From Macrostomum hystrix (lineage: Eukaryota; Animalia; Platyhelminthes), in assembly GCA_950097015.1 (NCBI GenBank), contig CATNEN010000038.1, positions 30,070,001-30,134,000 on the forward strand: a stretch of DNA of 64,000 bases, written 5' to 3'. Made by a program: the position numbers and the translations under genes. Below the pieces are notes generated by a model. It saw only the letters and a program-made list of their open reading frames with translations. It did not search any database and had not been told where the DNA came from. Numbering within the stretch: the stretch's first letter is position 1; the number at the start of each line of letters is the position of its first letter. Positions 10,035-26,830 of the stretch are shown one piece after another.

Positions 10035-13000
10035 TTAAAGAATATCACAGACGGCGCATTTTCTGACGGACGCTGCACCGCGACCGGTTCCAACAACGCC
10101 GGCGCCACCACCGCCTGGAGTCGGTGTCCGATTGCCTCCGTTCGAGCTGACATCAGACGCGAAGCTGATGTTGTCCCGTCCAGCGGCAGCTGCGGCAGCC
10201 GCAGCGGCTGCTGCCGCGGCTGCTACGGCGACAGCAGCGGCCGACGGTGCCACCGAGGCGTCGTGCCCACGCGTCGGTGTGTTGAAGCGATCCAGCGAGT
10301 TCTTAGTTGAAATCGAATGCTGACTGGCTGAAACCAGCCTAGGCTCAGCGTATTTTCCCACCTGGGCCAGAATCTCCAGGTAGCGAGCCTGGGTGTCCGC
10401 CTGCCTGCCCGAACCTCCGTGGCCTCCCACGCCGTTCATGTCGATGTAGACATAGGGGGACAGCACCAGACTGAGGGAGCCAGGCGGTGGCCAAACTGTC
10501 CACTCGAGCATCAGCGGGATGATCGGCTTGCGCAGGAGGTCGGCCAGGCACAGCTCTCGGACGCAGGCCTGCGAGCAGGCGAATTTGGGCGTCACGCAGG
10601 CCAACACGCAGCGGCAGCCACGCAGCGCCTTGTCAATGCGCGCATTCAGCAGGTCGCCGCCGCCTAGCTGGCCGACGTCCATCCAGCAGGCGAAGCCCTG
10701 ACGCTCCAGAAGGTCTCGCAACAAACGCACCGATTCCTGACTGTCCCACTGGTAGCTGATGAACACCTGCGCATCCAAGCGTCCTTCGTCTTCTCTTTCG
10801 GCGTCGATGGCGTCAGCGATGTCACAGCGGCCGAGCTCCACCAGGCAGGCCTTGGCCATGTCCACAGCTGAGTCACTGTTGCCCGCTGAGATCACCCAGT
10901 CGGCCAGGAGTATCAGCGCCGGGTTCAGGTCCTCGTTGAATCGGCGAACATCGGCTGACGAGTAGCCGAGTCGCTGAGCCAGCGCCTGCCAGTCCTGCCC
11001 GGGCGGCGCGCCGTTTAACAATTTGGCTGCCGACTTCATCCACTGCGGCAGGCAGTGGCCCTTCTGCACCTCGATGTTCCAGATGTCCGCGGACAGCACG
11101 TGATAGGGAATCAAAGGCGGCGGATGCCGACCGCTGCGACCTCCGCTCTGCTGCGGATTCGGAAACCAGCGCCGCCAGCGGGCGGTCTTCAATCGGCGAT
11201 GCCCGCAGCACACCAGCTTGGAGCTGAGACATTCGTCCAGGCTGAGAAAGTGCAGACACTCTGGCTGCTGGCAGGCCTCCCTGCTGTGCGGCTTGCAGGT
11301 CAGGCCGCACGGACAGGCGACGCTCAGGCTGAAGGTGACGCGCTTCAGCCAGATCTGGCGAATCTCTTCCAGAGTGGACTCTAGAAATTTGCGCAGCTGC
11401 GGGTTTGGGGGGGAGGTAGAATGGTTAAGGAGATCGGTAACTTGTCTGACTCTCGCACCTATATGGTCATGAATTCGAATCTGCGCTCTTGACCTTGAGG
11501 GCCACCAATTCGAAGCAGAAAGACTATTATATCTTTTTTTCGTTATCTCCCAAAATATCGAACCAATCGCCATGCAAAACACGGACTAAAGACGTCGGAC
11601 GGGTTTGAAAGTTAGTTTGCAGTGGGTATTGGTGAGAGTGCACACCGTCAGATGTACACACCTGTGTGAGCGTGTGCTTGGAATGGCGGGGCAAGACGTG
11701 TCCTGGCCAATCTCTCTTTAAGTCATAATGAGATGGTACACCTTAGACACTCACCTTGGCAACTACGGCCACATCTGGCGGCTCGGAGGACAGGCACGAG
11801 GTTGGTGGATGACCTGAAGCCAAGTCTGAACTGGTCACGCGATAAACCGATACCTGTAATGAACAGAAGGATGAGAGACTGAATGTTTGATAACTGCTCA
11901 GTGGATGTGGGAATGGGGACGTTATTAAAGGGGGAGAACTTAACTTAGGATCAGGGGAAGATCTTGGGGTAAGGAGGGGAAGATCTTGGGGGTAAGGAGG
12001 GTAAGATCTTGGTGGTAAGGAGGGGAAGATCTTGGGGGTAAGGAGGGGAAGATCTTGGGGGTAAGGAGGGGAAGATCTTGGGGGTAAGGAGGGGAAGATC
12101 TTGGGGGTAAGGAGGGGAAGATCTTGGGGGTAAGGAGGGGAAGATCTTGGGGGTAAGGAGGGGAAGATCTTGGTGGTAAGAAGGGGAAAATATTGGGGGT
12201 AAGGAGGGTAAGATCTTGGGGGTAAGGAGGGGAAGATCTTGGGGTAAGGAGGGGAAGATCTTGGGGGTAAGGAGGGTAAGATCTTGGGGGTAAGGAGGGG
12301 AAGATCTTGGGGGTAAGGAGGGGAAGATCTTAGAGAGGGGAAGAGAAACGAAATCTATAGAGCGAATAAAAGATCTCTATAAGAGGGAGGGCAGATCTTT
12401 GGAGGAGGTACAGGGGAAGATCCTTCGAAGACGGAGAGGATATCTTTAGGGAAGGGAGGGGAGTGAAGGTCTGTGTATAGAAAAGGGATATAATCTGGTG
12501 TGGAGAAATCTTGTAAAGTAGTGTAAGATGAGACGGAAGTGATATCTGACATGAAATCCCTAAAGAAATTCTACCTGACGTCAAATACAAGAATCTGTTA
12601 CACGGTCGCAGAAAAAACACTAAAAACTGAATGGGGCAAGCTAAAGAAATTATAAATTTAACATCAAAGCGAGATAATCACTAATGGATTAACCAGATCC
12701 CTAGCAAAGCGAATGCTATCTTGCTTTGATCTTTCAATAAAATTTCTTAAAGATTGCTAGAAAATTTTCTGTGATGACCATAGCCTTTTTCTTCTTTAAA
12801 ATGAAAAAGAGTTCATGATGAAAGAAATTTTATCCGATCTGGAACAAAAATTCGAGATTATAAGAGACACAAAAAAAATCGCAACGGCTGCTTCTGATTC
12901 TGCATTTTAACTAACAGGACATGTCTTTTTTTATATTCGGTTCAGGAAATGAAGTACCATTAATGGTACTACATATGTAAGTGCAACTTATTCTATCACA

Positions 13001-25000: not shown

Positions 25001-26830
25001 TCACAGGGAAATAATTTTAGGCTATTTCTGCTGCGGATTCCGTTTAGAATTTGAACTTGAATAGCGATTCCAGTCTTAGCTGCGATTCCGAATTTTGCTT
25101 CGACTTGAGCCTTATCTTCGATTCCATCTCCAGCTTCGATTCTATCTCCAGCTTCGATTCCATCTCCAGCTTCGATTCCTGCTCCAGCTTCAGCTTCGAT
25201 TCCATCTCCAGCTTCGATCCCAGCTTCAGACTCGATTCCATCTTCAGCCTCGATTCCATCTTCAGCCTCGATTCCAGCTTCAGCCTCGATTCCAGCTTCA
25301 GCTTCGATTCCAGCTTCAGCTTCGATTCCAGCTTCAGACTCGATTCCATCTTCAGCTTCGATTCCAGCTTCAGCCTCGATTCCAGCTTCAGCTTCGATTC
25401 CAGCTTCAGCTTCGATTCCAGCTTCAGCTTCGATTCCAGCTTCAGCTTCGATTCCAGCTTCAGCTTCGATTCCAGCTTCAGCTTCGATTCCAGCTTCAGC
25501 TTCGATCCCAGCTTCAGACTCGATTCCATCTTCAGCCTCGATTCCAGCTTCAGCCTCGATTCCAGCTTCAGCTTCGATTCCATCTTCAGCCTCGATTCCA
25601 GCTTCAGCCTCGATTCCAGCTTCAGCTTCGATTCCAGCTTCAGCTTCGATTCCAGCTTCAGACTCGATTCCATCTTCAGCCTCGATCCCAGCTTCAGACT
25701 CGATTCCATCTTCAGCCTCGATCCCAGCTTCAGACTCGATTCCATCTTCAGCCTCGATTCCAGCTTCAGCCTCGATTCCAGCTTCAGCTTCGATTCCAGC
25801 TTCAGCTTCGATTCCAGCTTCAGCTTCGATTCCAGCTTCAGCTTCGATCCCAGCTTCAGACTCGATTCCATCTTCAGCCTCGATTCCAGCTTCAGCCTCG
25901 ATTCCAGCTTCAGCTTCGATTCCATCTTCAGCCTCGATTCCAGCTTCAGCCTCGATTCCAGCTTCAGCTTCGATTCCAGCTTCAGCTTCGATTCCAGCTT
26001 CAGCTTCGATTCCAGCTTCAGCTTCGATTCCAGCTTCAGCTTCGATTCCAACTCCAGCTTCGATCCCAGCTTCAGCTTCGATTCCAGCATCAGCTTCGAT
26101 TCCAGCTTCAGCTTCGATTCCAGCTTCAGCTTCGATTCCAACTTCAGCTTAGAATTCAGCTTCCACAGCACAGTTAGTGTTTTTGGAGCTCCATTTTAAA
26201 AGCTATATATTCGATATTATTTTTCGATCTGATGAAGTTGCCGACATTCTATAGAATACGACTAAGAAACTCACTGGTTGGCACACTGCTGATCTGCCGG
26301 GTACTGCCATAGACATCCAGTAGAAGCCAGAACCTCCGCTGTTGAGCTTCTCGCACCGGTAGATAGGTCAGCAGCGAGCCTTTGTGCTCTCCGTCGATGA
26401 AGTAGTGCAGCTGACCAGCGGAGTTCAGATGCAGCGTCAGGCGGGCTCCGCTGCGTAGGTTCGACTCTGGCACTGGCCGCACCCAAGCTGTCTCATCGTC
26501 GGACCAGTCTGTCGAAGGATAAGAATACTTCGGCACTCGGGCCTGCAATGTTTGCGGATTCAGCGTTGTGACGCCGATTCTTAGTCCGCCAGCAGAGGAC
26601 TCTTCCAGTTGAACGCCACTTCTGACATGCTGCTGCTGCTGCTGCTGCAGAAGCTCAAAGCTAGCCCATTGGTTCAGTAGGATTGGTTCAGCCGAAAATG
26701 CCACCGCATCGCTCTGGCTATCATCCCGACGCCTGGCTGTTAGTCGATCGTCGGAGATGGCGAGTCCAGCGCCACAGACTCGGTGCAGTCGGAGTGGCGC
26801 AGCTGCCGGCTGCTGCTGCTGCTGCTGCAT
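10035..26830 (-). CDS. Kinase-less ROCO protein: Neuralized(NHR)-Roc GTPase-COR-Death-TIR, ~1387 aa. Exons 26830-26275, 24459-24291, 22224-21884, 20601-20027, 19719(or 19695)-19468, 19376-19233, 16265-16056, 15973-15803, 15266-15140, 14710-14553, 11853-11755, 11396-10035
   Basis: All 11 introns are GT-AG with matching phases (4164 nt total). [28 protein letters not shown]. Roc: [99 protein letters not shown]. Death: [53 protein letters not shown]. Confidence 0.88.
11955..12330. repeat. ~23-bp intronic minisatellite (GGGGGTAAGGAGGGGAAGATCTT)
   Basis: Direct inspection. Confidence 0.95.
13075..14000. repeat. 21-bp intronic minisatellite (CTATCTCTCCTTATCTCACCC)
   Basis: Direct inspection. Explains the spurious LLISPLS ORF. 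Confidence 0.95.
14815..15001 (+). mobile_element. tRNA-derived SINE, family 2 (CORE-like), 5' truncated
   Basis: B box GTTCGATTCC, CORE-like TGTGTCATTTAGCAAGACACTTAAC..TCAGTTTACCCAGCTGTTAATTGGG, and (CAAA)n tail. An inverted copy lies at 38553-38725. Confidence 0.7.
15500..15780. repeat. 26-bp intronic minisatellite (CTCTCGATGTACATATCCCTACCCCC-like)
   Basis: Direct inspection. Confidence 0.95.
16281..16790. repeat. (GATA/GACA)n microsatellite
   Basis: Direct inspection. Confidence 0.98.
17470..19040. repeat. 17-bp intronic minisatellite (CTCTAATCTCTTCCCTC-like)
   Basis: Direct inspection. Confidence 0.95.
19725..20031 (-). mobile_element. SINE family 1 copy that makes up an intron of the ROCO gene
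   Basis: Head GGGGTGAGTGCCAGAGCGGT versus family GGGGTCGGTGGCAGAGCGGT. The 3' ~220 bp match the other copies. (TTA)n tail. 14-bp TSD at 19711-19724 and 20033-20046 (1 mismatch). Confidence 0.85.
20670..20830. repeat. Degenerate 20-bp tandem repeat (AATTACTCTCACCTATCTTT-like)
   Basis: Direct inspection. Confidence 0.8.
21255..21846. repeat. 21-bp intronic minisatellite (GATGATGTACACGAGTATCTA)
   Basis: About 28 copies. Confidence 0.95.
23384..24260. repeat. CT-rich compound minisatellite (CTGTCTGTCTGTCTCCCTTCTCT)
   Basis: Direct inspection. Confidence 0.95.
24548..24715. repeat. 16-bp tandem repeat (ATCCCAACTTAATGAA)
   Basis: About 10 copies. Confidence 0.95.
25060..26165. repeat. 18-bp intronic minisatellite (GATTCCAGCTTCAGCTTC)
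   Basis: About 60 copies. The unit length is a multiple of 3, which gives open frames. Confidence 0.95.

What the first reader, a model, noticed from the sequence alone, without database searches (positions are those of the whole stretch)
10035..26830. NHR-Roc-COR-Death-TIR: kinase-less ROCO protein with two immune/cell-death effector domains
Seen: the ORF track shows only fragments, but 12 phase-compatible exons join a Neuralized-homology domain, Roc GTPase, COR, a Cys/His cluster (CPCGLTC..H..C..C..H..C..CC.H), a Death domain and a TIR domain. There is no kinase, LRR or ankyrin region. Known: Roc-COR is a nucleotide-regulated dimerisation switch (LRRK2, DAPK1, MFHAS1); Death+TIR is the MyD88 pairing; NHR domains bind peptides. 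Inference: a single-chain sensor-switch-effector similar in logic to an NLR but using a ROCO switch, a candidate uncharacterised innate-immune or cell-death receptor.
Basis: partly seen in the sequence, partly recalled or inferred. Interest (0 to 1): 0.8.

Follow-up and report, generated by a model that had tools for sequence, protein, structure and literature searches.

The report
Lipid-anchored flatworm ROCO-Death-TIR signalling gene

Summary
The gene is real: 12 GT-AG exons on the minus strand encode 1380 aa, NHR-Roc-COR-Cys/His-Death-TIR, with no kinase, LRR or ankyrin. Public contigs show the NHR-to-Roc splice, the last splice and a Macrostomum spliced leader at 26875. The architecture is not new. 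It was tabulated in 2016 for centipede and oyster (PMC5094078 supplement), and this scan reported it before in other genomes. Homologues with the same architecture span molluscs, annelids, nemerteans, rotifers, priapulids, chelicerates, myriapods, echinoderms, hemichordates and amphioxus. I found no functional study.

- The TIR keeps SARM1's catalytic Glu (67 of 72 rows, 5 gaps) but lacks the cyclase Trp (0 of 69).
- A C-terminal CaaX box is conserved (62 of 71; 0 of 27 other ROCOs).
- The Cys/His cluster looks like two metal sites.
- This flatworm copy lacks the Roc switch-I Thr.

Best reading (0.4): a prenylated, clustering-gated NAD+ hydrolase, SARM1-like in output. A MyD88-type adaptor is the main rival (0.27). 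An immune role is untested, and the strong conservation argues against a fast-evolving pathogen sensor.

The parts
26875..26876 (-). Spliced-leader trans-splice acceptor (AG ends at 26876; the mRNA continues at 26875). The leader's terminal AUG is in frame, 15 codons before ATG 26830.
   Evidence: Loose end of one X4 contig matches the 3' end of the published M. lignano SL; frame check; M. lignano P0257 starts at exactly this codon
26275..26875 (-). Exon 1: first genomic ATG at 26830; Neuralized homology repeat (NHR) about 26785-26282
   Evidence: PF07177 E 1.4e-26; contigs cover it in pieces and splice it to exon 2
24291..24459 (-). Exon 2: pre-Roc helix and Roc G1 P-loop GPPGAGKT (24349-24326)
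   Evidence: Acceptor fixed by contigs; G1 Lys in 68 of 72 rows, 4 gaps
21884..22203 (-). Exon 3: Roc switch I region, with Asp250 (22181-22179) where 58 of 72 rows have Thr; low-complexity insert
   Evidence: Acceptor inferred from tblastn to P0001; alignment
20027..20601 (-). Exon 4: Roc G3 WDFNGH (20320-20303; family consensus WDFAGQ)
   Evidence: PF08477 E 5.5e-9
19468..19719 (-). Exon 5: Roc G4 GTHRG and a degenerate G5
19233..19376 (-). Exon 6: end of Roc and start of COR-A
   Evidence: tblastn 84% to P0001
16056..16265 (-). Exon 7: COR-A
   Evidence: PF16095 E 1.6e-7
15803..15973 (-). Exon 8: COR-A
   Evidence: PF16095 E 0.033
15140..15266 (-). Exon 9: COR-A/COR-B link
   Evidence: 90% to P0001
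14553..14710 (-). Exon 10: COR-B
   Evidence: 86% to P0001; the orthologue model matches LRRK2 Roc-COR
11755..11853 (-). Exon 11: COR-B
   Evidence: Covered by X3 and X4 contigs and spliced to exon 12
10035..11396 (-). Exon 12: end of COR-B, Cys/His cluster, Death domain, TIR, disordered tail, CaaX box, stop
11199..11315 (-). Cys/His cluster, predicted as two metal sites: a core (C955, C957, H976, C983/C991) and a removable insert (C961, H964, C969, C974)
   Evidence: Nine positions at 97% or more conservation; the insert is deleted as one block in 3 of 66 rows (P0052, P0056, P0120)
10803..11027 (-). Death domain, nearest solved relatives NRADD and p75NTR
   Evidence: PF00531 E 1.1e-8; PDB profile hits
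10353..10766 (-). TIR_2-type TIR domain: Glu1208 (10556-10554) aligns with the SARM1 catalytic Glu; Ala1204 sits at the Trp position
10038..10058 (-). C-terminal CxxC-aaL (CAVCDIL): predicted geranylgeranylation box with an upstream Cys
   Evidence: Cys at -4 in 62 of 71 family proteins and 0 of 27 other Roc-COR proteins; contigs match this stretch with 0 differences

Best explanation
The gene encodes a single-chain, kinase-less ROCO protein that is likely lipid-anchored to a membrane by its C-terminal CaaX box and whose TIR domain is predicted to cut NAD+, likely to linear ADP-ribose, when the protein is clustered. Shown: the gene, two of its splices, the domain order, the conserved catalytic Glu, the missing cyclase Trp, the conserved CaaX box and the LRRK2-like fold of Roc-COR in an orthologue model. 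Inferred sequence of events: (1) geranylgeranylation plus the upstream Cys hold the protein on a membrane; (2) the NHR binds a short motif in a partner's cytoplasmic tail, as Neuralized NHR1 does (recalled), probably a host protein; (3) this relieves a restraint in the Roc-COR-zinc core, so the Death domains and TIRs of several copies come together; (4) assembled TIRs form SARM1-like active sites and lower local NAD+ or release ADPR, while the Death domain may also recruit a partner. In this flatworm copy the Roc keeps its P-loop but has lost the switch-I Thr and the G3 Gln, so it more likely acts as a nucleotide-bound scaffold than as a fast GTP/GDP switch.
For: TIR Glu in 67 of 72 rows, the other 5 being gaps of truncated models; it aligns with the SARM1 Glu, and the F/S/Y of strand A and the Asp of strand B are kept in 69-70 of 72 rows. 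The TIR is the most conserved part: 38 of 140 columns at 97% or more, against 6 of 148 in NHR. All 13 PDB sequence hits are SARM1 or prokaryotic-type TIR proteins, and Foldseek's top rows are SARM1/TIR-1. A 2026 preprint shows Glu-dependent NAD+ processing by many animal TIRs, and its Fig. 3 legend lists Roc and COR among their architectures (10.64898/2026.04.20.719644). Cyclase TIRs all carry an aromatic residue 4 before the Glu (10.1101/2022.05.07.491051); here Trp occurs in 0 of 69 rows (His 22, Leu 19, Tyr 2), pointing to linear ADPR. CaaX box: 62 of 71, of which 60 end in Leu and 56 have CxxC; 0 of 27 control ROCOs. The sister Death-TIR-TIR family has it in 30 of 33, often after a Lys-rich stretch instead of the extra Cys, i.e. 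the two classical second signals of Ras proteins (recalled). Orthologue model: pLDDT 83.9, pTM 0.72; LRRK2 Z 29.1, rmsd 4.0 A over 482 residues; NHR1 Z 27.8, rmsd 1.0 A.
Against: No activity has been measured. Keeping the Glu is common: only 12 of 61 animal TIRs chosen for it were active in E. coli, and TLR2, IL-1R9 and IL-1R10 keep it without activity. Loss of the Trp lowers SARM1 activity and abolishes it in L6 and ROQ1, so the TIR may be weak or dead. By fold, the SARM1 (Z 16.3) and MyD88 (Z 15.8) TIRs are tied. This copy's CaaX has Asp at a1, seen in none of the 62 other CaaX ends listed, which may weaken prenylation (recalled). The family rows are related sequences, not independent trials. 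Gating by Roc-COR and the NHR ligand are wholly inferred.
Confidence: 0.4

Rival explanations
1. It is a non-enzymatic, membrane-tethered adaptor: TIR-TIR contacts with receptors and Death-Death recruitment of IRAK-, caspase- or p75-type partners, gated by Roc-COR.
For: Death precedes TIR as in MyD88. The TIR folds tie. The Trp is absent. Most Glu-bearing animal TIRs tested were inactive. Many invariant TIR residues lie in loops (the GQxGGG, WPPxG and GGHGGxG motifs), which fits a conserved binding surface. PMC9334734 files a ROCO-bearing Death+TIR protein as MyD88-like.
Against: The TIR is TIR_2-type, with no MyD88 sequence hit up to E 10. The Death domain is nearer NRADD/p75NTR than MyD88. 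The Glu is invariant in 67 of 67 ungapped rows. PMC5094078 notes that canonical MyD88/TLR proteins carry TIR, not TIR_2.
Confidence: 0.27
2. It is an NLR-like pathogen sensor: the NHR recognises a microbial ligand and the ROCO switch triggers Death/TIR-driven immunity or cell death.
For: Bacterial AP-GTPase/COR proteins pair a sensor with TIR or caspase effectors, and Neuralized repeats belong to the SPRY-like fold used in immunity (PMC8195603). A clam transcript labelled 'neuralized pats1' changes about 759-fold in QPX nodules (PMC4769524). Related echinoderm ROCOs swap effector domains freely.
Against: The fixed architecture, and mostly one locus per named species in the hit lists (copy number not counted in genomes), are unlike expanded NLR families. 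The NHR is about 38% identical to Drosophila Neuralized NHR1. The clam datum is one assembly isoform, it goes down rather than up, and it was not verified as an orthologue.
Confidence: 0.15
3. It acts in development or in neurons (Notch-ligand trafficking, or pruning and degeneration) rather than in immunity, whatever the TIR chemistry.
For: The NHR1-like binding domain, the p75NTR-like Death domain, the SARM1-like TIR and the strong conservation.
Against: There are no expression or phenotype data here, and no insect, nematode or vertebrate member appears among the named hits (weak absence).
Confidence: 0.17
4. The model fuses separate genes (an NHR gene, a Roc-COR gene and a Death-TIR gene).
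For: No single contig spans the whole gene, and 9 of 11 junctions were not seen directly.
Against: The NHR exon is spliced to the Roc exon and the Death-TIR exon to the COR-B exon. The same chain exists in dozens of species, including Logan contigs of about 4.1-4.5 kb that hold the whole 1270-1320 aa frame.
Confidence: 0.01

Closest known systems
[quoted passage not shown]
   Same: Identical domain order, Cys/His cluster, TIR motifs and CaaX end. T1IR33 is P0061 and K1QWV6 lies in the cluster of P0031. The window protein is 82.6% identical to M. lignano P0001, with the same downstream neighbours.
   Different: The Macrostomum copies lack the switch-I Thr and G3 Gln, carry low-complexity inserts and are SL trans-spliced. 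The window copy ends CDIL.
Cnidarian 'Novel Gene 3' (kinase-SH3-Roc-COR-Death-TIR; Nematostella A7RN39)
   Same: Roc-COR-Death-TIR_2 C-terminal module.
   Different: Kinase and SH3 in place of NHR. No cnidarian protein appeared among the named hits, so orthology is untested.
LRRK2/LRRK1 and the Chlorobium tepidum Roco protein
   Same: Roc-COR tandem and the helix that precedes Roc; model matches at Z 23-29, profile E 1e-17 to 1e-28.
   Different: No LRR, ankyrin, kinase or WD40. A roughly 130-residue helical insert after switch I; Death-TIR and CaaX at the C-terminus.
SARM1/TIR-1
   Same: TIR_2-type domain with an aligned catalytic Glu and F-x-S-Y strand A; nearest animal TIR by sequence and by Foldseek.
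   Different: No ARM or SAM domains, the Trp equivalent to W638 is absent, and activity is untested.
MyD88
   Same: Death domain followed by TIR; TIR fold Z 15.8.
   Different: TIR_2 rather than TIR class, no sequence hit, a p75NTR-like Death domain, and it is embedded in a 1380-aa ROCO.
Unnamed invertebrate Death-TIR-TIR-CaaX family (e.g. P0073, P0074)
   Same: Closely related TIRs with the Glu, a Death domain and a CaaX end (30 of 33).
   Different: Two TIRs, no Roc, COR or NHR hit, a Lys-rich tail, and several tandem copies in amphioxus and urchins.

Membership tests
NHR-Roc-COR-Death-TIR ('neuralized PATS1') family | Domain order NHR, Roc, COR, Death, TIR_2 in one chain | tested here: met
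NHR-Roc-COR-Death-TIR ('neuralized PATS1') family | Sequence similarity along the whole chain to the published members | tested here: met
   Exon 12 hits members at E down to 1e-122; T1IR33 and K1QWV6 are in the same hit set
ROCO proteins | Roc immediately followed by COR-A and COR-B | tested here: met
   Pfam Roc and COR-A; orthologue model against LRRK2 Z 29.1, rmsd 4.0 A, 482 residues
ROCO proteins | Intact G1-G5 GTPase motifs | tested here: inconclusive
   G1 GKT, G3 Asp/Gly and G4 TH are kept; switch-I Thr, G3 Gln and G5 EN are replaced in this copy
ROCO proteins | GTP binding/hydrolysis and nucleotide-dependent dimerisation | not testable with these tools
   Needs biochemistry
LRRK/DAPK kinases | Kinase domain | tested here: not met
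   No kinase family in 11 exon pieces or in the full-length orthologues scanned; the UniRef 'serine/threonine kinase' names are automatic labels
Catalytic (SARM1-type) TIR NADases | Glu in helix alphaC | tested here: met
   E1208 in 67 of 72 rows, 5 gaps; aligned to SARM1
Catalytic (SARM1-type) TIR NADases | Trp of the WxxxE motif (needed for cyclisation) | tested here: not met
   Ala1204; Trp in 0 of 69 ungapped rows (criterion)
Catalytic (SARM1-type) TIR NADases | Measured NAD+ cleavage and TIR self-assembly | not testable with these tools
   Needs an assay
MyD88 | MyD88-class TIR (PF01582) and Death domain sequence | tested here: not met
   TIR_2 1e-19 against TIR 0.016; no MyD88 TIR hit up to E 10; Death domain nearer NRADD/p75NTR
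NLRs | STAND (NACHT/NB-ARC) ATPase and repeat sensor | tested here: not met
   No such family above cut-off; the switch is a Roc GTPase fold
CaaX-prenylated proteins | Conserved Cys four residues from the C-terminus with aliphatic a2 and X = Leu | tested here: met
   CDIL; 62 of 71 against 0 of 27 controls; a1 = Asp is atypical
CaaX-prenylated proteins | Actual prenylation | not testable with these tools
   Needs labelling or mass spectrometry

The most novel reading that the evidence does not exclude
This family is a second, pan-invertebrate SARM1-like death or danger enzyme, at least as old as bilaterians: a membrane-anchored TIR NAD+ hydrolase gated by an LRRK2-type ROCO core and triggered through a Neuralized-type peptide reader. 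It would link ROCO switching directly to NAD+ signalling in animals. In flatworms, rotifers and arthropods the Roc would have become a pseudo-GTPase scaffold.
Probability: 0.3. Interest if true: 0.78.

Novelty: new member of a known kind. Interest (0 to 1): 0.45.

Why it matters
How Roc-COR controls its output domain is an open question for LRRK2. A kinase-less ROCO with a potentially enzymatic TIR would give a simple NAD+ read-out of that control. It would also add a conserved, membrane-targeted TIR enzyme to animal signalling, where SARM1 has long been the only clear example. Macrostomum offers RNAi and transgenesis (recalled), so this copy makes the family testable in vivo. The architecture itself is already catalogued, so the value lies in the testable mechanism, not in the discovery of the gene.

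Tried and rejected
- No whole genome is held, so copy number and intron positions in relatives were not examined.
- No RNA holder listed: the look-up of sequencing runs gave no run on record as RNA. The spliced joints and leader come from runs of unknown kind, all from one study. X1 and X2 held only short pieces. No contig spans the gene.
- My first exon 2 and exon 3 acceptors (24480, 22224) were rejected: contigs give 24459 and homology gives 22203. An ORF start at 11585 for the last exon was rejected by the 11755/11396 joint.
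- Homodimer prediction for the COR-B-to-TIR half of orthologue P0003 returned 'no answer', score 0.00, alignment not used. It is not evidence either way.
- Trees: the TIR tree (quick tree only, the careful search was unfinished) does not place the window protein beyond its Macrostomum pair. The COR-TIR tree (27 of 72 rows) groups all 10 rows lacking the switch-I Thr on one side of a weak branch (support 73) among long branches, so independent losses are not shown.
- No cnidarian, sponge, insect, nematode or vertebrate member appeared among named hits. The searches are word-limited, and most of the 150 listed hits were not named (12 looked up), so this is weak.
- NCBIfam gave only a far-below-cut-off Thoeris ThcB4 match.
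- The Cys/His cluster was barely tested by the fold searches.
- Literature searches that found no functional study, and no mention of the CaaX box or TIR catalysis for this family.
- Not seen, and either may bear on novelty: the ecTIR-DC classification paper cited as ref. 30 in PMC6321704, and Table S4 of the 2026 TIR preprint (bioRxiv supplements are closed), which could include a member.

Full report
OBSERVATION. The gene lies on the minus strand among long tandem repeats. Reading the three frames gave 12 exons: 26830-26275, 24459-24291, 22203-21884, 20601-20027, 19719-19468, 19376-19233, 16265-16056, 15973-15803, 15266-15140, 14710-14553, 11853-11755 and 11396-10035. All 11 introns are GT-AG, and the joined frame is 1380 codons with one terminal stop. 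Pfam on 11 exon pieces found Neuralized (1e-26), Roc (6e-9), COR-A (2e-7 and 0.03), Death (1e-8) and TIR_2 (1e-19), and no kinase, LRR or ankyrin.

TRANSCRIPT EVIDENCE. No run was on record as RNA, but four runs of one study hold processed sequence. Two of four runs laid on 9220-11950 join 11755 to 11396. Two of four runs laid on 26170-28500 end at 26275 and continue with 30 letters equal to 24459-24430, so the NHR exon is spliced to the P-loop exon. One contig carries 21 extra letters at 26876 that match the 3' end of the published M. lignano spliced leader (PMC8629364, passages seen); the same leader sits on the divergent plus-strand gene at 28395 in all four runs. The leader ends in AUG, in frame 15 codons before ATG 26830, and the M. 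lignano model P0257, labelled 'partial', starts at exactly this codon. Flatworm leader AUGs can start translation and are in frame in 28% of Schistosoma cases (PMC9851317, passages seen), so use of this AUG is possible but not shown. The remaining nine junctions are inferred from 12 collinear matches to M. lignano P0001. The organism is a Macrostomum: the protein is 82.6% identical to P0001 (1103 of 1336 aligned), and a mis-fused M. lignano model (P0002) shows the same downstream neighbours.

FAMILY. Searches with exon 12, an abalone region and an amphioxus region and a library-wide search returned the same architecture in molluscs, annelids, nemerteans, rotifers, a priapulid, chelicerates, myriapods, echinoderms, hemichordates and amphioxus. 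For counts I used 71 proteins with the NHR/Roc/COR plus Death-TIR layout. I left out the mis-fused P0002, five unrelated or shuffled hits (P0026, P0027, P0108-P0110) and 33 members of a Death-TIR-TIR sister family; with the window protein this makes 72 rows. Several Logan contigs of 4.1-4.5 kb hold the full 1270-1320 aa frame, which shows one transcript in other species.

ANATOMY. NHR: a model of nemertean orthologue P0003 (residues 1-1159, 66-row alignment; pLDDT 83.9, pTM 0.72) matches Drosophila Neuralized NHR1 at rmsd 1.0 A and 38-39% identity. Roc-COR: it matches LRRK2 at Z 29.1, rmsd 4.0 A over 482 residues. The family consensus is GxDxVGKTS, STDGID, WDFAGQ, GTHR(N/D), AVEN. The window protein keeps the G1 Lys/Thr, G3 Asp/Gly and G4 TH, but has Asp for the switch-I Thr (Thr in 58 of 72 rows) and His for the G3 Gln (Gln in 40). 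Rotifer and arthropod members are similarly degenerate; the tree cannot tell one loss from several. Cys/His cluster: nine positions are at least 97% conserved; four of them (C961, H964, C969, C974) vanish together in 3 of 66 rows, suggesting one core and one optional zinc site (inference). Death: nearest solved relatives are NRADD (2e-11) and p75NTR, with MyD88 at 1e-4. TIR: the most conserved domain (38 of 140 columns at 97% or more; NHR 6 of 148). E1208 is present in 67 of 72 rows (5 gaps) and aligns with the SARM1 catalytic Glu (the number E642 is recalled and appears in PDB titles). All 13 PDB sequence hits are SARM1 or prokaryotic-type TIR proteins, yet by fold Hydra TRR-2 (Z 17.0), SARM1 (16.3) and MyD88 (15.8) are close, SARM1 and MyD88 being tied. 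The Trp of WxxxE is absent in all 69 ungapped rows. C-terminus: Cys at -4 in 62 of 71 (60 end in Leu, 56 have CxxC); seven of the nine exceptions stop inside the TIR region and two end in unrelated sequence. None of 27 other Roc-COR proteins has it. The window copy ends CAVCDIL, confirmed by contigs with no differences; its Asp at a1 is unique in the list.

MECHANISM. Most likely (0.4): a prenylated ROCO scaffold whose NHR reads a partner peptide and whose clustering assembles a SARM1-like TIR active site that yields linear ADPR. Support and limits come from two preprints. In 10.64898/2026.04.20.719644 (parts 1-3 of 6 and a term search seen), 12 of 61 Glu-bearing animal TIRs were active; a figure legend lists Roc and COR but neither NHR nor Death. 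In 10.1101/2022.05.07.491051 (passages), all cyclase TIRs have an aromatic residue at the Trp position, and Trp loss lowers or abolishes activity in SARM1, L6 and ROQ1. The prior for real activity is therefore modest, and a non-enzymatic adaptor stays close (0.27). A pathogen-sensing NLR analogue (0.15) fits the bacterial AP-GTPase-COR-TIR precedent (PMC8195603, passages) but not the fixed, apparently low-copy, NHR1-like sensor. The one expression datum is a single clam isoform labelled 'neuralized pats1', down about 759-fold in QPX nodules (PMC4769524, one table passage and supplement rows); it was not verified as an orthologue. A developmental or neuronal role (0.17) is suggested only by domain kinship.

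WHAT IS KNOWN. [quoted passage not shown] PMC9334734 (passages; supplement search; figure not seen) has NHR, Death, ROC, COR and TIR in its Fig. 6 legend, calls a ROCO-bearing protein MyD88-like and proposes a GTPase TLR cascade. GenBank names the Saccoglossus member 'neuralized PATS1'. PMC6321704 (passages) points to an ecTIR-DC classification that I could not see. Searches found no functional study and no mention of the CaaX box or TIR catalysis for this family. This scan's earlier notes on octopus, oyster and another animal describe the same family and a similar mechanism. I had reached the Glu and CaaX reading before seeing them; they supplied the name and the prompt to check the Trp.

VERDICT. 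This is a new flatworm member of a catalogued, uncharacterised bilaterian family. Its testable additions are the CaaX anchor, the Glu-without-Trp TIR, the two-site Cys/His cluster and the degenerate Roc switch. Interest 0.45; 0.78 if ROCO-gated NAD+ cleavage is shown.

Noticed in passing
window 26876-28395: Two genes run head to head 1.5 kb apart and both carry the same spliced leader. The plus-strand gene (SL acceptor at 28395; coiled-coil-like ORF pieces at 28524-28739 and 30749-31120) has no Pfam match for those two pieces.
   Followed up: partly
proteins P0024, P0025, P0073-P0104, P0107: An unnamed sister family, long N-terminus-Death-TIR-TIR with a Lys-rich CaaX tail (30 of 33 end in CaaX), with several tandem copies in amphioxus and sea urchins; nearly all its TIRs keep the Glu.
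   Followed up: partly
proteins P0279-P0304, P0026: Echinoderm Roc-COR proteins of the same Roc subtype carry varied partners by precomputed Pfam: Death, Macro, kinase+ZU5, ankyrin, CARD/FN3, and one with RIG-I-like helicase domains (P0291).
   Followed up: no
window 4655-6112 (+) and 197-3675 (+): A two-SET-domain ORF (PF00856, 2 stretches) and a long coiled-coil gene lie downstream; the same neighbours flank the M. lignano orthologue.
   Followed up: partly
window 19728-19953, with copies at 6514-6738, 51470-51686, 53894-54087, 29242-29355: A dispersed element of about 225 bp fills most of intron 4 (92-93% identity to two copies).
   Followed up: no
window 9864-10047 and 11520-11703: High-depth repeated sequence sits just after the stop codon and within intron 11; many unrelated contigs share 9967-10028.
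   Followed up: no
window 51906-54960 (+): Cys-loop ligand-gated ion channel gene (Neur_chan_LBD and Neur_chan_memb).
   Followed up: no
window 63060-63998 (+): Ras-family small GTPase ORF, cut by the window end (PF00071 3e-18).
   Followed up: no
proteins P0069, P0070, P0071, P0105, P0106: Several database models of the family stop at nearly the same place half-way through the TIR (Pfam positions 52-53 in P0069 and P0105): either a shared intron with annotation failure or real TIR-truncated isoforms.
   Followed up: no
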